Assembly (NCBI RefSeq): GCF_036507355.1
Contig: NZ_AP027878.1
Length of the DNA: 64,000 nt
Source: Escherichia coli
Lineage (GTDB): Bacteria > Pseudomonadota > Gammaproteobacteria > Enterobacterales > Enterobacteriaceae
Direction: 5' to 3' (one strand)
The notes under the pieces are model-generated. The model was given only the letters and a program-made list of their open reading frames with translations, was not told where the DNA came from and made no database searches. Positions 12,148-64,000 of this stretch are shown here, piece by piece. How positions within the stretch are numbered: position 1 is the first letter of the stretch; every line of letters starts with the position of its first letter. The position numbers were made by a program, and so were the translations under genes.

Positions 12148-12705
12148 ATGAAGGGAAAAACAGCCGCAGGAGGCGGTGCAATTTGCGCTATCGCGGTGAT
12201 GATTACCATCGTAATGGGTAATGGCAATGTGCGAACCAACCAGGCGGGGCTTGAGCTGATTGGTAACGCTGAAGGTTGCCGACGTGATCCATACATGTGC
12301 CCGGCGGGGGTATGGACTGACGGGATCGGTAATACACACGGGGTAACGCCGGGTGTGCGAAAAACCGACCAGCAAATCGCCGCTGATTGGGAAAAGAATA
12401 TCCTGATCGCTGAACGCTGTATTAATCAGCACTTCCGGGGCAAAGACATGCCCGATAATGCCTTCAGCGCAATGACAAGCGCGGCATTCAATATGGGATG
12501 CAATAGCTTACGGACCTACTACAGCAAAGCGCGAGGCATGCGAGTCGAAACGTCCATCCACAAGTGGGCGCAGAAAGGGGAATGGGTGAATATGTGTAAC
12601 CATCTCCCTGATTTCGTGAACAGTAACGGCGTGCCCCTGCGAGGTTTAAAGATTCGCCGTGAAAAAGAACGCCAGCTTTGCCTGACGGGACTGGTCAATG
12701 AATAA
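12148..12705 (+). CDS. lyz: SAR endolysin (T4-lysozyme-like with N-terminal signal-arrest-release domain)
   Basis: 185 aa; hydrophobic N-terminus AICAIAVMITIVMG then lysozyme-like fold; matches P1 Lyz. Confidence 0.9.
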   Translation: MKGKTAAGGGAICAIAVMITIVMGNGNVRTNQAGLELIGNAEGCRRDPYMCPAGVWTDGIGNTHGVTPGVRKTDQQIAADWEKNILIAERCINQHFRGKDMPDNAFSAMTSAAFNMGCNSLRTYYSKARGMRVETSIHKWAQKGEWVNMCNHLPDFVNSNGVPLRGLKIRREKERQLCLTGLVNE

Positions 12706-12952
12706 ACTCCGGCAGCTCCGCCGACTTTCGACAATGAAGTTATCGCTGGCGGCGATAGTTTTCGACTCGATTTTCATGGCGGTATATGTGCTCAATGAGA
12801 CGTGGCCACTGGAACCGCTATTGTATGCAGGGCTTCGGCTGTGCCTGACATTTTTGAGCATGGCTGCAAGATTGATGCAGCAGAAAGAAACCGCTTCAGA
12901 TTGTCCACGCCGCGCGGTGCGCAAATATATGGCACGCAGGCGAAGGCGATAA
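12698..12952 (+). CDS. Small membrane protein overlapping lyz stop (possible lysis accessory)
   Basis: 84-aa ORF begins in ATGAATAA overlapping lyz stop, two hydrophobic segments, followed by a terminator. Confidence 0.35.
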   Translation: MNKLRQLRRLSTMKLSLAAIVFDSIFMAVYVLNETWPLEPLLYAGLRLCLTFLSMAARLMQQKETASDCPRRAVRKYMARRRRR

Positions 12953-12965
12953 TAGTTAACGAGAA

Positions 12966-12991
12966 CCCCGGCAGCTGCCGGGGTTATTTTT
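12966..12991. terminator. Intrinsic terminator between lyz region and pro
   Basis: CCCCGGCAGCTGCCGGGG palindromic stem followed by TTATTTTT. Confidence 0.65.
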
Positions 12992-12996
12992 GGTGG

Positions 12997-15727
<2,731 letters not shown>

Positions 15728-56398: not shown

Positions 56399-57044
56399 TT
56401 ATTAACCTCATTACTGGTTGGGAAATAAGGTTGCGGTGCCGGGTGCTTCCCGGTGTCCTTTAGCTGGTTATCCACCGTGGACGGGGAAATAAGGAGAAAT
56501 AATGGACAGATATAACCATTTCCCCGCGTGCGCTTAGCCGCATTCACCGCAACGGAAAGAGCATTCCTGGTGGACCTGTAGATTGGGATATGAACCCGTT
56601 ACAGGAGAATGCTCTTACCTGTTACGTGCTCCGTTTCGTGGAGCTAACGGCGGGTGATCGGGCCGCACCAGACTGGACTTATTTCAGCGTTATGCTCATG
56701 CCAGAGAATCAAACTGTGATGGTCGGTGCTGAACTCCGACACAGGGTTGTAGCAAGCCCCGCAAAGCGCGCACTACTGTAGTTGCGGCACATCAGCCTGT
56801 GCATTCACCACAATGTTGAGAACACTGGTTGTCACGCTGCAACGCAACATTTATTCGTAGATTGGGATATGACCCCGTTACGCCAGTGTTCTCAACGTTG
56901 TAGTGCCGGTTACGGTTCCGGCCAGGCCTCTTCCTCAACGGGGTGTTCTCCATACGGACTACCGTTTATTGGTCGTTCCTGCGGTTTATGTTGTGAAGCC
57001 AGATGCTTATCTTCTGGTTGCTTCAAAGAGCTGCACTTCATCAC

Positions 57045-57128
57045 AACGGTAAGGGTACTTCGTAGGGATTCGAACCCTCTGCCAAGCTCGGCGATCTCCG
57101 ACGTCGCAAAATACCCTTACCTGTTGTG
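57045..57128 (-). ncRNA. tRNA-like structured element (T-arm-like AGGG-TTCGAAT-CCCT inside a long inverted repeat), not a canonical tRNA
   Basis: Minus strand has GGTTCGAATCC T-loop motif but no matching acceptor or anticodon arms; flanked by 17-bp inverted repeat CACAACAGGTAAGGGTA/TACCCTTACCGTTGTG. Confidence 0.35.
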
Positions 57129-57129
57129 C

Positions 57130-57205
57130 TGGTGCCGATTAACGGACTCGAACCGCTGACATCCTGCTTACAAGGCAGGCGCTCTACCAACTGAGCTAAA
57201 CCGGC
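57130..57205 (-). tRNA. tRNA-Thr (anticodon UGU)
   Basis: Minus strand GCCGGTTTAGCTCAGTTGGTAGAGCGCCTGCCTTGTAAGCAGGATGTCAGCGGTTCGAGTCCGTTAATCGGCACCA. Confidence 0.85.
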
Positions 57206-61568: not shown

Positions 61569-61853
61569 GTGGCAAGTATTGCAACAAAAGACAGCATTTG
61601 TTCGGGGCACGGAGGATTCCCATCCAGGCCTCCTGTAGAGAGTGAACCACTACTTAAAGTCAACGGAGTCGAAGTGTTAGTTGATGGTAAGCAATATGCA
61701 CAGCATACCGATGGAAACAGTACGCACGGTGGGCAAGCTATATCAACCAGGGCATGGTTTACCGTCAATGGTAAAGGGATCGTATGCGTTGGTGACCCTG
61801 TTTCATGCGGATCTACCGTAGCGTCCGGAGACGGCCTGGTTCAGGTAAGTTAG
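61569..61853 (+). CDS. Hypothetical small protein
   Basis: 94-aa ORF divergent from uhr. Confidence 0.35.
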   Translation: MASIATKDSICSGHGGFPSRPPVESEPLLKVNGVEVLVDGKQYAQHTDGNSTHGGQAISTRAWFTVNGKGIVCVGDPVSCGSTVASGDGLVQVS

Positions 61854-62650
61854 GAGATATCATGCTGGAAAAAGACTACCAGTTATCCGCATATAAAAAA
61901 TTGGCCGCCGCCGGTGGGATGAAAACACCTGGTGCCATAACATCGGCACGAAACAGTGCTAACACGGCAAAACAGCTTGCAGAAGAATTGATCGGATTAA
62001 TTTTGGATACAATTGTCTATCCCGACACTATTACCAGCTATGTTTCAACGATCAGAACAACCACAACCGGCTTAACGAACATTGGAGAACTGGCAACTAA
62101 GCACGCGGACCTGTTGGCTGGTTATGCAGATCTGTCAATGCTGCTTCAACTCGATATTGGTTGGGATGTTTACTGCCGTGCTAATGAGCGAGAAGTATCA
62201 GAACTGCCGATCTCTATTGCCATTGGTGATGTGACTATTACTAAATCGCTTGAGGACGCTGTAAACGCGCTTAATACATCAAGTTTAGTCGCTGCTATGG
62301 GGGAGATTAACCAGACCCTTAACACTGGCTCAGGAAGCTCGTCAGGCTCTGGTTCAGGCGGCGGCACTGCCACTCCCCCACCAGCACTAACAGAAGAGCA
62401 AATTGAATCTCTGAAAGTAGCAACTGAACAGTTTGAGGTTGTTTTCAACCAGACAACAGCGCCCACAACTGCGTTACAACAGCAGTATGAACGAGCGAAT
62501 GAAAGCGCCAACGTAGCCATAACTGCTTATAACCATGCTATCGGTACCGCGCTTGCGGAAGCATCAGCAAATAAGGCCAGCACAGCCAGCGCAGTTGCCG
62601 CTTTGGTTCCTGATTCTGTTCTTGATGAATTAAACAAAGCGGCACAGTAA
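61805..62650 (+). CDS. Hypothetical protein with a Ser/Gly linker (SGSSSGSGSGGG)
   Basis: 281-aa ORF. Confidence 0.45.
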   Translation: MRIYRSVRRRPGSGKLGDIMLEKDYQLSAYKKLAAAGGMKTPGAITSARNSANTAKQLAEELIGLILDTIVYPDTITSYVSTIRTTTTGLTNIGELATKHADLLAGYADLSMLLQLDIGWDVYCRANEREVSELPISIAIGDVTITKSLEDAVNALNTSSLVAAMGEINQTLNTGSGSSSGSGSGGGTATPPPALTEEQIESLKVATEQFEVVFNQTTAPTTALQQQYERANESANVAITAYNHAIGTALAEASANKASTASAVAALVPDSVLDELNKAAQ

Positions 62651-62662
62651 CAAAGGACTTCA

Positions 62663-63112
62663 TTGATAATTTTTCTTCAGGAGGAAGACATGTCATTCTT
62701 TTCTACGTTAAAAACAGCTTTGTCTTTGAAGGAGAAACTTGCTGCTACTGGTGTTCTTGTTCTGATTTGCGCACTTGTTGGTGCTGGGTTTGCATGGGAA
62801 CGTCATCAGCTAAAGCAAGCCATGGAGAAAATTGGCAGTCTTGATCAGGCTGTTAAGGAACGTGATAAGTCAATAATGGATCTTAACCAGGCCATTGAGA
62901 CGATGAACAAAGCAGAGCAACATTTTCACAGCCAGGAAGTGAAAAATGAATCAGAACAAGCCAAGTATGCTGACAGGCAAATGGAACGAAAAGCTGAAGT
63001 TCAGAAACAACTGGTTGCGGCGGGTAATGTTCGCCAGCGTATTCCTGCTGACACTCAGCGGTTGCTCCGGGAGTCGATCAGCGAATTTAACGCCGACGCC
63101 GACAAAGGTTAA
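62663..63112 (+). CDS. Membrane-anchored coiled-coil protein, i-spanin (Rz)-like
   Basis: 149 aa; N-terminal TM segment VLVLICALVGAGFAW, coiled coil, C-terminal RIPADTQRLLRES resembling Rz C-termini. Confidence 0.45.
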   Translation: MIIFLQEEDMSFFSTLKTALSLKEKLAATGVLVLICALVGAGFAWERHQLKQAMEKIGSLDQAVKERDKSIMDLNQAIETMNKAEQHFHSQEVKNESEQAKYADRQMERKAEVQKQLVAAGNVRQRIPADTQRLLRESISEFNADADKG

Positions 63113-63278
63113 CCACCCTGCCCCCAAAAGTGCATTTATGTGCAGGATGCCAGAATTTAGCAGTGAATATTTTGATGATCTGCCAGCCTATATCCTTGAT
63201 ACAGAAACGATGCTGAAGGGGATTAACAGGAAGAATCGCAACGTTAATGATTACAACCGCGCTATCAGCGGTAACTAA
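63027..63278 (+). CDS. Lipoprotein, o-spanin (Rz1)-like, overlapping the 3' end of the preceding gene
   Basis: From internal ATG: MFASVFLLTLSGC lipobox then Pro-rich LTPTPTKVNHPAP; track ORF begins 62946. Confidence 0.4.
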   Translation: MFASVFLLTLSGCSGSRSANLTPTPTKVNHPAPKSAFMCRMPEFSSEYFDDLPAYILDTETMLKGINRKNRNVNDYNRAISGN

Positions 63279-63289
63279 AAGGGATTTTT

Positions 63290-63682
63290 ATGTCTGATAA
63301 AGTAACAGTAAAGCAAACTATCAACAAAGCGACTTCAATCTACAAAATTGAGCACATCACTGTTGGCAAGCCAGGATCTGAACAATACCGTCATGCTTTC
63401 GAGCTTGCCGATCAGCTTGGTTTAAAACACCCGGATTGCATCGAGCATGTATTTCCGACCTATGCTGATGAGCAATGTACTCATGTTCTTACCGAAGAGG
63501 ATTTTTTCAGCACTGAAGAACGAGAAGGCGTTGATCGCTGCATTGGTGTGATTTGTTCTTCGGTAAGTGATGAGTTATTCCCTAATGTGCCTGAATATGG
63601 TGGTATTGGATACCAATTCCTGTACGAGGGCGATGAGCTTAAATGCTATGAACATGGTCTTCTCATCGAAAGCGTAGAATAA
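63290..63682 (+). CDS. Hypothetical protein just upstream of oriR
   Basis: 130-aa ORF. Confidence 0.45.
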   Translation: MSDKVTVKQTINKATSIYKIEHITVGKPGSEQYRHAFELADQLGLKHPDCIEHVFPTYADEQCTHVLTEEDFFSTEEREGVDRCIGVICSSVSDELFPNVPEYGGIGYQFLYEGDELKCYEHGLLIESVE

Positions 63683-63723
63683 TACGACTGCCTTCCAACC
63701 GGCTACGTTGGCCGGTTTTTCAC

Positions 63724-63742
63724 TTATCCACATTATCCACTG
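63724..63742. promoter_or_regulatory. Tandem DnaA boxes of plasmid origin oriR
   Basis: TTATCCACA and TTATCCACT. Confidence 0.7.
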
Positions 63743-63744
63743 GA

Positions 63745-63802
63745 TAGATCCAATAATCAGGTCCATACAGATCCCAATTAGATCCATATAGATCCCTGAT
63801 CG
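63745..63802. repeat. GATC-containing heptamer repeats of oriR (Dam methylation sites)
   Basis: Five GATC sites at about 11-bp spacing: AGATCC, AGATCC, AGATCC, AGATCC, TGATCG. Confidence 0.7.
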
Positions 63803-63840
63803 TTGCAGGCCGTGCCACGTCTGGCTTAGAAGTGTATCGC

Positions 63841-63945
63841 GATGTGTGCTGGAGGGAAAACGATGTGTGCTGGAGGGATAAAAATGTGTGCTGACGGGTT
63901 GCTAATGTGTGCTGGCGGGATATAGGATGTGTGCTGACGGGAAAG
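63841..63945. repeat. incC: Five 21-bp-spaced iterons (RepA-binding incC repeats of oriR)
   Basis: GATGTGTGCTGGAGGGAAAAC and four close variants in direct tandem; repA would lie beyond the window edge. Confidence 0.8.
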
Positions 63946-64000
63946 CCTGGGTAGTTATCACCACTTATAAAAACTATCCACACAATTCGGAAAAAGTAAT

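What the first reader, a model, noticed from the sequence alone, without database searches (positions are those of the whole stretch)
62663..63278. Spanin-like pair (embedded lipoprotein inside a membrane-anchored coiled-coil gene) far from the lysis cassette
The 149-aa protein has an N-terminal TM segment, a coiled coil and a C-terminus reminiscent of Rz. In the +1 frame an internal ATG gives an 83-aa product with lipobox LTLSGC followed by a Pro-rich stretch, the o-spanin signature, extending past the stop of the first gene. Holin, antiholin and endolysin in this element are already split between two loci; this would be a third, origin-proximal locus carrying the outer-membrane disruption step.
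Basis: inference. Interest (0 to 1): 0.5.

Follow-up and report, generated by a model that had tools for sequence, protein, structure and literature searches.

The report
Phage P1 spanin genes ppfA/mlp

Summary
The window is a P1-type phage-plasmid, 98.8% identical to phage P1 over this region. The finding is P1 ppfA (gp064) plus mlp (gp063).

All described features are present:
- a membrane-anchored, mostly helical 140-aa protein;
- a +1-frame ORF with lipobox LTLSG|C that starts inside it and runs 166 nt past its stop.

The pair is kept in seven lineages, down to about 30% identity. The non-overlapped half of mlp is under strong purifying selection. Profile matches tie both halves to the P2 LysB/LysC spanin families, not to lambda Rz/Rz1. 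Published RNA-seq shows late kinetics like lyz and lydA/lydB.

- The architecture is "overlapped", not "embedded".
- ppfA most likely starts at ATG 62690 (140 aa), not TTG 62663.
- The conserved mlp start is ATG 62946 (110 aa), not the 83-aa ATG. The mature lipoprotein is the same either way.
- The conserved linkage is to the tail-spike genes upfC and upfB, not to the origin.

P1 ppfA/mlp are listed as overlapped spanins in SpaninDB (Kongari 2018). [quoted passage not shown] Verdict: real, correctly interpreted, already known; low interest.

The parts
62690..63112 (+). ppfA (P1 gp064): i-spanin candidate, 140 aa. N-terminal membrane anchor, long periplasmic helix, conserved hinge (G112, R115-Q-R-x-P119), short C-terminal helix.
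   Evidence: ORF and start context. 98.6% identical to P1 PpfA. phrog_89 'Rz-like spanin' at 2.6e-25. AlphaFold2 secondary structure. SpaninDB entry.
62679..62684 (+). Shine-Dalgarno AGGAGG for the ATG at 62690.
   Evidence: Sequence. The same SD is recorded in SpaninDB.
62738..62794 (+). Transmembrane segment of PpfA (about residues 17-35). K8, K14 and K16 lie on its N-terminal side, which implies an N-in/C-out (type II) topology.
   Evidence: Kyte-Doolittle 19-residue maximum of 2.35 at residue 17. Topology is inferred from the positive-inside rule.
62946..63278 (+). mlp (P1 gp063): o-spanin precursor, 110 aa, in the +1 frame relative to ppfA. 167-nt overlap; extends 166 nt beyond the ppfA stop.
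   Evidence: 99.1% identical to P1 Mlp. phrog_30284 and phrog_456 'Rz-like spanin'. 37% identity to P2 LysC over 68 aa. The first ATG is the only start conserved in all lineages.
62934..62939 (+). Shine-Dalgarno-like AGGAAG, 6 nt upstream of the mlp ATG. The JK004 and L009 lineages have GGAGGTGA at the equivalent place.
   Evidence: SpaninDB records AGGA here.
63054..63065 (+). Lipobox L37-S38-G39-C40. Cys40 (63063-63065) is the predicted lipidation site. Ser at +2 predicts sorting to the outer membrane.
   Evidence: Regex and coordinates. The Cys is invariant in the alignment. SpaninDB notes that LipoP cleaves at position 39.
63141..63143 (+). Codon for Cys66 of Mlp, the only periplasmic cysteine of the pair. 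It is the candidate for a homodimer disulfide.
   Evidence: Invariant column C66, also aligned with a Cys of P2 LysC. PpfA has no periplasmic Cys. The role is inferred from lambda Rz1 C29 and T4 PseT.2 (PMC6139136).
61569..61853 (+). upfC, the first gene of the operon: PAAR-like tip of the tail spike.
   Evidence: P1 annotation. Cryo-EM assignment (PMC12810830). Synteny is kept in all relatives.
61805..62650 (+). upfB: baseplate 'tripod' protein. The real start is probably Met20, at 61862.
   Evidence: The phrog_1559 match begins at residue 20. Homologues in other lineages start at MLEKDYQ.
63290..63682 (+). upfA, the last gene of the operon; function unknown.
   Evidence: Absent in the Klebsiella-type loci L007 and L008.
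63697..63727 (+). Intrinsic-terminator-like hairpin plus T-run that ends the operon, just before oriR.
1527..2616 (+). First unlinked lysis locus: lydC-like gene, lydA (holin, 1847-2176) and lydB (antiholin, 2173-2616).
   Evidence: tblastn with the P1 proteins. P1 annotation.
12148..13017 (+). Second unlinked lysis locus: lyz (SAR endolysin, 12148-12705), lydD and lydE.
   Evidence: tblastn with the P1 proteins, 100% identity. P1 annotation.

Best explanation
ppfA and mlp encode a two-component spanin of the overlapped class, distantly related to P2 LysB/LysC.

Proposed mechanism, step by step:
1. Late in infection the upfC-upfB-ppfA-mlp-upfA transcript accumulates together with lyz and lydA/lydB (shown by published RNA-seq).
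2. PpfA inserts into the inner membrane through its N-terminal segment, with about 105 mostly helical residues in the periplasm (inferred from sequence and model).
3. Mlp is translated from the +1-frame ATG at 62946 and exported. It is lipidated at Cys40, its 39-residue signal is cleaved, and it is sorted to the outer membrane because residue +2 is Ser (inferred).
4. The C-terminal parts of the two proteins bind across the periplasm, and Mlp dimerises through Cys66 (inferred by analogy with lambda Rz1 and T4 PseT.2).
5. Once the LydA holin fires and the Lyz endolysin removes the peptidoglycan mesh, the complexes fold at the PpfA hinge (residues 111-119). This fuses inner and outer membrane and removes the last barrier to virion release (inferred from the lambda model; never tested for P1).
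For: Identity with P1 ppfA/mlp.

Spanin signatures in the sequence:
- a single N-terminal transmembrane segment;
- a lipobox with Ser at +2;
- a Pro/Thr-rich linker after the lipobox.

Predicted helix-hinge-helix periplasmic domain.

Family links: PpfA matches phrog_89 at 2.6e-25 over nearly its full length, and P2 LysB scores 5.8e-61 there. Mlp matches phrog_456 at 8.9e-6, where P2 LysC scores 1.7e-31. P2 LysC reciprocally hits the Mlp family phrog_30284 at 5.4e-4. Mlp residues 24-90 are 37% identical to LysC residues 1-67.

Conservation:
- The overlapped pair, the lipobox Cys and Cys66 are kept in seven lineages, down to about 30% identity.
- The non-overlapped part of mlp has pN 0.12-0.17 against pS 0.72-0.88.
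- mlp and ppfA are among the 21 most conserved genes of 54 P1-like plasmids (PMC9603915).

Late kinetics, as log fold change at 10 then 30 min (PMC8201110 Table S1):
- ppfA 5.6 then 11.2; mlp 4.1 then 10.5;
- late genes lyz 6.1 then 11.3 and lydA 5.2 then 11.8;
- early neighbours hrdC 9.4 and dmt 8.8 already at 10 min.

A linker-fused PpfA-Mlp model raised pTM from 0.28 to 0.53 and raised the pLDDT of the PpfA C-terminal helix from 61-74 to about 90. This is weak, indirect support for an interaction.

The literature already classifies the pair as spanins.
Against: - There is no experimental test. Bednarek 2022 says explicitly that the function is not verified.
- CRISPRi knock-down of ppfA gave an efficiency of plating of 1.3/1.2, and mlp gave 0.24/0.19. 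Both were scored non-essential (PMC10695390). The same assay scored lambda Rz as essential.
- No Pfam match.
- NCBIfam LysB and LysC matches are far below the curated cut-offs: 18.4 against 92.75 bits and 15-16 against 27 bits.
- hhalign against the single sequences of LysB and Rz is insignificant.
- Database copies with 1-nt deletions that destroy ppfA are common.
- The signal peptide is unusually long (39 aa). It fails the PROSITE position rule, and SpaninDB flags it as 'too long'.
- The pair is not in a lysis cassette.
Confidence: 0.85

Rival explanations
1. The pair modulates the timing of lysis, as P2 lysB/lysC were first annotated, rather than disrupting the outer membrane itself.
For: The P2 record still describes lysB and lysC as 'nonessential; affects timing of lysis' and 'regulation of lysis'. 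The CRISPRi knock-downs are viable.
Against: The two-membrane topology (inner-membrane anchor plus outer-membrane lipoprotein) is exactly the spanin layout. The PHROG library labels the families holding LysB and LysC 'Rz-like spanin'. From my own knowledge, spanin defects are masked under standard laboratory conditions, which explains 'timing' phenotypes.
Confidence: 0.05
2. Mlp is a lysogenic-conversion or exclusion lipoprotein (like lambda Bor, or Cor/Llp-type proteins) expressed from the plasmid prophage. PpfA would be an unrelated membrane protein.
For: The P1 annotation predicts sigma-70 promoters P1ppfA and P2ppfA just upstream, so expression in the lysogen is not excluded. The locus sits beside the plasmid maintenance region.
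Against: Transcript kinetics are late-type: low at 10 min, with about 6 log units of rise by 30 min. The obligate overlap and co-conservation of the two genes over large divergence argue for a joint function. Both halves are related to LysB/LysC.
Confidence: 0.04
3. The two proteins belong to the tail-tip or entry apparatus, because they are co-transcribed with the spike proteins UpfC and UpfB.
For: The order upfC-upfB-ppfA-mlp is conserved in all relatives, including ones with a different replicon. UpfC and UpfB are baseplate spike and tripod proteins.
Against: The cryo-EM study lists the ten baseplate proteins and includes neither PpfA nor Mlp. A Sec/lipoprotein signal and an inner-membrane anchor send the proteins to the host envelope, not to a cytoplasmically assembled virion (inference).
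Confidence: 0.03
4. mlp is a chance open frame inside and after ppfA, not a gene.
For: With the PpfA protein fixed, the +1 frame is open over the overlap in 49% of synonymous resamplings. Many automatic annotations do not call it, or call only its last 44-46 codons.
Against: A lipobox arises in only 1.7% of resamplings. The ORF, the lipobox Cys and Cys66 are kept in seven lineages. There is strong purifying selection on the non-overlapped half. Mlp is related to P2 LysC.
Confidence: 0.01

Closest known systems
Phage P1 PpfA (gp064) / Mlp (gp063), the P1 entry of SpaninDB (Summer et al. 2007; Kongari et al. 2018)
   Same: It is the same gene pair. PpfA differs at 2 of 140 residues (I45M, T67A) and Mlp at 1 of 110 (M91K). 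The overlap, lipobox, Shine-Dalgarno sequences, neighbours and position next to oriR are all the same.
   Different: Only those three substitutions. The window comes from a P1 variant, not the reference genome.
Phage P2 LysB / LysC (phrog_89 / phrog_456; NCBIfam TIGR03495 / NF038368)
   Same: Overlapped +1 architecture. Similar sizes: 141 and 96 aa against 140 and 110 aa. Both halves fall in, or next to, the same PHROG families. Mlp and LysC share a signal/lipobox, a PTP-rich linker and a Cys-x-M-P motif, with 37% identity over 68 aa.
   Different: The match is far below the NCBIfam equivalog cut-offs, and hhalign against LysB alone is insignificant. P2 has the pair inside its lysis cassette, after Y, K and lysA. 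P1 has it behind tail-spike genes, tens of kilobases from the holin and endolysin. LysB has periplasmic cysteines and PpfA has none.
Phage lambda Rz / Rz1 (Pfam PF03245 / PF06085; phrog_13 / phrog_3198)
   Same: The same functional layout: a type II inner-membrane protein with a helical periplasmic domain, plus an outer-membrane lipoprotein encoded in the +1 frame. It is the mechanistic model for the class.
   Different: There is no detectable sequence relationship. In lambda the lipoprotein gene is fully embedded, and the mature protein is 40 aa against 71 aa here. Lambda has three disulfide cysteines (Rz C99, Rz C152, Rz1 C29) against one here. The lambda pair lies in the lysis cassette.
Phage T4 PseT.3 / PseT.2
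   Same: The i-spanin has no periplasmic cysteine, and the o-spanin is longer, with a predicted C-terminal helix (PMC6139136; model). The spanin genes are unlinked to the holin and endolysin genes (own knowledge).
   Different: The T4 genes are separated rather than overlapped. PseT.2 has two periplasmic cysteines. No sequence similarity was found.

Membership tests
Two-component spanin (functional class of Summer 2007 / Kongari 2018) | i-spanin: a small type II inner-membrane protein with one N-terminal transmembrane domain and a largely alpha-helical periplasmic domain. | tested here: met
   Hydropathy peak of 2.35 at residues 17-35, with Lys residues on its N-terminal side. Predicted helices 13-110 and 120-137. 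A specific coiled-coil heptad test was inconclusive.
Two-component spanin (functional class of Summer 2007 / Kongari 2018) | o-spanin: a small lipoprotein with signal peptide, lipobox and Cys, and no inner-membrane retention residue at +2. | tested here: met
   LTLSG|C with Ser at +2. The lipobox motif fits the PROSITE pattern, but Cys40 is beyond the positional limit of 35. SpaninDB reports a LipoP cleavage site at 39 and no PROSITE hit. No LipoP or SignalP tool was available here.
Two-component spanin (functional class of Summer 2007 / Kongari 2018) | The two genes are adjacent: embedded, overlapped or separated, with the o-spanin in the +1 frame when overlapping. | tested here: met
   The +1 frame, a 167-nt overlap and a 166-nt extension past the stop make this the overlapped class. 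The arrangement is conserved in seven lineages.
Two-component spanin (functional class of Summer 2007 / Kongari 2018) | At least one periplasmic cysteine for intermolecular disulfide bonds (507 of 528 systems have one). | tested here: met
   Mlp Cys66 is invariant. PpfA has none. The statistic comes from PMC6139136.
Two-component spanin (functional class of Summer 2007 / Kongari 2018) | Physical complex formed through the C-terminal domains of the two subunits. | tested here: inconclusive
   The linker-fused AlphaFold2 model raised pTM from 0.28 to 0.53 and raised the pLDDT of the PpfA C-terminal helix and the Mlp helix to about 86-91. No contact map or multimer model was available.
Two-component spanin (functional class of Summer 2007 / Kongari 2018) | Expressed late, together with the holin and endolysin. 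| tested here: met
   Published RNA-seq table: ppfA 5.6 then 11.2 and mlp 4.1 then 10.5 (log fold change at 10 and 30 min), like lyz, lydA, lydB and the head and tail genes, and unlike the early neighbours. No Lpa-type late promoter was found upstream with a narrow pattern.
Two-component spanin (functional class of Summer 2007 / Kongari 2018) | Loss blocks outer-membrane disruption (spherical cells with divalent cations), or the genes complement lambda Rz/Rz1 mutants. | not testable with these tools
   The literature says this is not verified for P1. CRISPRi plating scored both genes non-essential.
P2 LysB/LysC family | Score above the NCBIfam equivalog cut-offs (TIGR03495 at 92.75 bits; NF038368 at 27 bits). 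| tested here: not met
   18.4 bits and 15.2-16.2 bits. This is not an equivalog, only a distant relative.
P2 LysB/LysC family | Remote-homology grouping with LysB and LysC (phrog_89 and phrog_456). | tested here: met
   PpfA matches phrog_89 at 2.6e-25, covering positions 3-137 of 143. Mlp matches phrog_456 at 8.9e-6. LysB and LysC are the strong members of those families, and LysC hits phrog_30284 back.
Lambda Rz/Rz1 family | Match to Pfam Phage_lysis (Rz) or Rz1, or to phrog_13 / phrog_3198; embedded architecture. | tested here: not met
   No Pfam hit. The lambda proteins fall in other PHROGs. hhalign probability is 1.7%. There is no BLAST hit between Mlp and Rz1. The architecture is overlapped, not embedded.

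The most novel reading that the evidence does not exclude
The pair is not the outer-membrane-disruption device of P1, or not the only one. Three observations leave room for this. Its function has never been tested. Knock-downs plate normally, whereas lambda Rz scored essential in the same assay. Frameshifted ppfA copies are frequent in natural P1-like plasmids. P1 might therefore have a redundant route through the outer membrane. Alternatively, the pair may have another role tied to the tail-spike genes upfC and upfB, its one conserved linkage, and to its unusually long (39-residue) basic lipoprotein signal peptide.
Probability: 0.1. Interest if true: 0.4.

Novelty: already known. Interest (0 to 1): 0.1.

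Why it matters
It matters little beyond correct annotation. The pair completes the three-step lysis set of P1 (holin and antiholin, SAR endolysin, spanin), which is scattered over three loci. That scattering was already described.

Two points are of practical use:
- Many GenBank P1-like records annotate only a truncated 44-46-aa 'Rz1' that lacks the lipobox, or no o-spanin at all.
- The spanin function of this textbook phage is still untested, so a simple lambda complementation or Mg2+ lysis experiment remains worth doing.

Tried and rejected
- Pfam scans of both proteins found nothing at E <= 0.001.
- NCBIfam gave only sub-threshold LysB and LysC hits.
- hhalign of the PpfA alignment against the single sequences of P2 LysB and lambda Rz was insignificant. 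The alignment is shallow (Neff 1.6), so this does not exclude homology.
- Searching 5.8 billion and 1.84 billion proteins found only P1-type elements plus a few more distant relatives. Where context was available, those relatives were again P1-like, about 92-kb contigs. No homologue was found inside a classical lysis cassette, so there is no independent guilt-by-association evidence.
- No relative has a solved structure.
- A pattern built from the late promoters LPlyz and LPdar recovered those two and no site upstream of upfC or ppfA. The pattern is too narrow to count as a negative result.
- A crude single-register heptad test for a coiled coil was not significant.
- plp, the other annotated P1 'lipoprotein' (window 56782-57159), was considered as a possible second, unimolecular spanin. 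I rejected it on sight of its sequence: it has neither a lipoprotein signal nor a C-terminal membrane anchor.
- The paper by Summer et al. 2007 could not be read. It is cited through PMC9025707 and PMC6139136.
Full report
**What the window is.** The region 62600-63700 is 98.8% identical to phage P1 (NC_005856 positions 62932-64032, opposite strand). It is 97-98.5% identical to P7, SJ46, RCS47 and other P1-like phage-plasmids. The P1 record annotates the two ORFs of the finding as ppfA (gp064, 'possible periplasmic function') and mlp (gp063, 'membrane lipoprotein precursor ... possibly involved in regulation of lysis'; RefSeq product 'Rz-like spanin'). upfC and upfB precede them, upfA follows, and then comes the plasmid origin oriR with its RepA iterons. 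The window proteins differ from P1 at two residues in PpfA and one in Mlp.

**Checking the observation.**
- The maximal ORF 62663-63112 (149 aa) starts at a TTG without a ribosome-binding site. The ATG at 62690 lies 5 nt after AGGAGG and gives the 140-aa protein that P1 and SpaninDB use.
- PpfA has one strongly hydrophobic segment (residues 17-35, Kyte-Doolittle 2.35) with lysines on its N-terminal side.
- Its remaining 105 residues are 35% charged and contain no cysteine.
- AlphaFold2, run with a 15-sequence alignment, predicts a continuous helix 13-110, a loop 111-119 over the conserved G112/R115-Q-R-x-P119, and a second helix 120-137 (mean pLDDT 70).
- A crude heptad test did not reach significance. 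'Long helical rod with a hinge' is supported; 'coiled coil' is not shown.
- The +1-frame ORF 62946-63278 (110 aa) carries L-T-L-S-G-C, with Cys at codon 40 and Ser at +2. A Pro/Thr-rich stretch follows, then one further Cys (C66).
- This ORF overlaps ppfA by 167 nt and continues 166 nt beyond its stop. In the nomenclature of the field this is 'overlapped', not 'embedded' as in the finding's title.

**Is it more than chance?** Openness of the +1 frame is not remarkable in itself. With the PpfA protein held fixed, 49% of synonymous resamplings leave it open over the overlap, but only 1.7% also create a lipobox. The decisive evidence is comparative.
- I fetched loci from Cronobacter phage JK004, from contigs carrying proteins that NCBI names as Salmonella and Klebsiella PpfA, and from an unnamed metagenome lineage (PpfA 59-64% identical). 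I also fetched two far more distant relatives, P0102 and P0108 (about 30% identity).
- All seven lineages keep a +1 ORF of 108-111 codons. Each has a lipobox Cys at the same place, the same second Cys in the motif (F/S)MC(R/T)(M/L)P, and a conserved C-terminal domain ending in INRKN(R/Q)N.
- In the part of mlp that lies beyond ppfA, non-synonymous differences are 0.12-0.17 per site against 0.72-0.88 synonymous. That is a protein-coding signature.
- In ppfA, synonymous divergence drops inside the overlap (0.51-0.61 against 0.65-0.71), as expected under double constraint.

**Start codons.** That Met is absent from every other lineage. The first ATG (62946) is the only start present in all of them, and in the JK004 and L009 lineages it follows GGAGGTGA. 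The precursor is therefore most likely 110 aa, with a 39-residue signal peptide. Its n-region is long (about 27 residues) and strongly basic (net +6 to +8 in all lineages). SpaninDB flags the same thing: 'Too long signal sequence; LipoP finds cleavage at 39; no hit by Prosite'. The mature 71-residue lipoprotein is the same whichever start is used.

**Family relationships.**
- PpfA matches PHROG 89 ('Rz-like spanin') at 2.6e-25 over almost its whole length.
- Mlp matches its own small family phrog_30284, and also phrog_456 at 8.9e-6.
- Scanning reference spanins shows that P2 LysB is a strong member of phrog_89 (5.8e-61) and P2 LysC of phrog_456 (1.7e-31). LysC also hits the Mlp family back (5.4e-4).
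- Lambda Rz and Rz1 fall in unrelated PHROGs, 13 and 3198.
- Mlp residues 24-90 align with LysC residues 1-67 at 37% identity.
- The relationship is distant. NCBIfam LysB and LysC models score far below their cut-offs, Pfam finds nothing, and hhalign against single LysB or Rz sequences is insignificant.
The relatives are the P2-type overlapped spanins.

**Context.** The window does hold the other lysis genes at two further places: lydC-like/lydA/lydB at about 1527-2616 and lyz-lydD-lydE at 12148-13017. The 'third locus' statement is correct. The ppfA-mlp pair sits in an operon-like block, upfC-upfB-ppfA-mlp-upfA, closed by a terminator-like hairpin at 63697-63717. A 2026 cryo-EM study identifies UpfC as the PAAR-like spike tip and UpfB as a baseplate 'tripod' (PMC12810830). 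That block order is conserved in every relative. It holds even in the distant L012-L014 elements, where the genes downstream are different and no RepA-type origin follows. Proximity to oriR is thus incidental; linkage to the tail-spike genes is the conserved feature.

**Expression.** The RNA-seq table of Cech et al. (PMC8201110, Table S1) gives log fold changes at 10 and 30 min after P1vir infection.

| Gene | 10 min | 30 min |
|---|---|---|
| upfC | 4.9 | 10.6 |
| upfB | 4.1 | 11.1 |
| ppfA | 5.6 | 11.2 |
| mlp | 4.1 | 10.5 |
| upfA | 5.2 | 11.2 |
| lyz (late) | 6.1 | 11.3 |
| lydA (late) | 5.2 | 11.8 |
| lydB (late) | 3.4 | 11.0 |
| gene 23 (late) | 5.4 | 12.1 |
| uhr (early neighbour) | 8.6 | 11.1 |
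| hrdC (early neighbour) | 9.4 | 12.0 |
| dmt (early neighbour) | 8.8 | 11.2 |
| parA (early neighbour) | 9.5 | 11.5 |

The pair is expressed with late kinetics. I found no Lpa-type late promoter upstream with a pattern derived from LPlyz and LPdar, but that pattern is too narrow to be informative.

**Mechanism.** The best-supported reading is a two-component spanin.
- PpfA is anchored in the inner membrane and Mlp is lipid-anchored in the outer membrane.
- The two are joined through their C-terminal parts across the periplasm, with Mlp dimerised through Cys66.
- After holin triggering and peptidoglycan removal, the complex collapses at the PpfA hinge and fuses the two membranes.
- Only the sequence features, conservation, family links and expression timing are shown. 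Localisation, complex formation and membrane fusion are inferred from the lambda and T4 systems (PMC6139136).
- A linker-fused PpfA-Mlp model gave higher confidence than PpfA alone (pTM 0.53 against 0.28). The PpfA C-terminal helix reached a pLDDT of about 90 and the Mlp helix 86-89. This hints at an interaction but is not a test.

**Evidence against, and rivals.**
- Nobody has tested the function.
- CRISPRi knock-down of ppfA had no plating effect and mlp only a fivefold one. Both were scored non-essential, whereas lambda Rz scored essential in the same assay.
- Many database copies carry 1-nt deletions that fuse PpfA to Mlp.
- The rivals are a lysis-timing role, a prophage-expressed surface lipoprotein, a tail-tip or entry role, and a chance ORF. 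They are listed with their evidence, and none fits the topology, the co-conservation and the late expression as well.

**Comparison with what is known, and novelty.** This is already known.
- SpaninDB (Kongari et al. 2018) lists P1 as 'ovl', with gp064 as i-spanin (140 aa, no periplasmic Cys) and gp063 as o-spanin (110 aa, 71 mature, one Cys).
- Bednarek et al. 2022, citing Summer et al. 2007, describe the genes as partially overlapping and located in a third unlinked operon. That paper swaps the i- and o- labels.
- RefSeq already names mlp 'Rz-like spanin', and several GenBank records name the pair Rz/Rz1.
The finding is correct but ordinary.

Noticed in passing
window 62941-62945 (A5 run) and elsewhere in 62946-63112; loci L016, L017, L019: Many database 'PpfA' proteins of 195 aa (one cluster of 193 aa) are PpfA-Mlp fusions. 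They arise from 1-nt deletions at six or more different positions in the overlap. Examples: the A5 run shortened to A4 just before the mlp ATG (P0041 with 31 members, P0048 with 22), and a C deletion in an NCBI 95-kb plasmid contig. These are either assembly errors or natural inactivation of ppfA. The A-run variant leaves mlp intact.
   Followed up: partly
window 63138-63278; L002 2039-2179; L003 4458-4592; L009 3049-3186: Several GenBank and metagenome annotations call only the last 44-46 codons of mlp (from the internal Met65, 'MCRMPEF...'), some naming it 'outer membrane lipoprotein Rz1'. That product has no signal peptide or lipobox. PHROG 15803 ('lipoprotein', 46 positions) appears to be built from these truncated calls.
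   Followed up: partly
window 62946-63062 (Mlp signal peptide): The lipoprotein signal is 38-39 residues long in all seven lineages. Its n-region of about 27 residues is poorly conserved in sequence but always strongly basic (net +6 to +8). The composition may be a by-product of reading the charged PpfA helix in the +1 frame. Whether it is functional or merely tolerated is unknown.
   Followed up: partly
L006 and L007/L008, +1 frame of the ppfA homologue: In the L006 and L007/L008 lineages, whose PpfA proteins NCBI names as Salmonella and Klebsiella, the lipobox is LTLN(G/A)C. Asn at position -2 lies outside the usual [ASTVI] or PROSITE sets.
   Followed up: no
window 61805-61862 (start of upfB): The P1-style 281-aa UpfB start (ATG 61805, overlapping upfC by 49 nt) is probably too far upstream. 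The PHROG match begins at residue 20, and homologues in other lineages start at MLEKDYQ, which corresponds to ATG 61862, 9 nt after the upfC stop.
   Followed up: partly
L012-L014 (about 92-kb contigs) and L007/L008: The block upfC-upfB-ppfA-mlp is kept in distant P1-like elements that have different downstream genes and no RepA origin next to it. upfA is missing in L007/L008. In L006 and L012-L014 the gene at or near the upfA position carries the Pfam Phage_gp49_66 domain. In phage JL22 upfA is split by a blaCTX-M-55 insertion (PMC9603915).
   Followed up: partly
PMC9025707, Introduction: [quoted passage not shown] The labels are swapped relative to the sequences and to SpaninDB.
   Followed up: yes
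window 63720-64000: The window ends inside oriR. RepA iterons (GATGTGTGCTGGAGGGA-type repeats) are visible at about 63840-63940, and the DnaA box and GATC-rich part lies before them, as annotated in P1.
   Followed up: no
window 1527-1745: The lydC-like gene of this element is only 67% identical to P1 LydC, while lydA, lyz, lydD and lydE are 100% and lydB is 98.6% identical. This agrees with reports that lydC lies in a variable region of P1-like plasmids.
   Followed up: no
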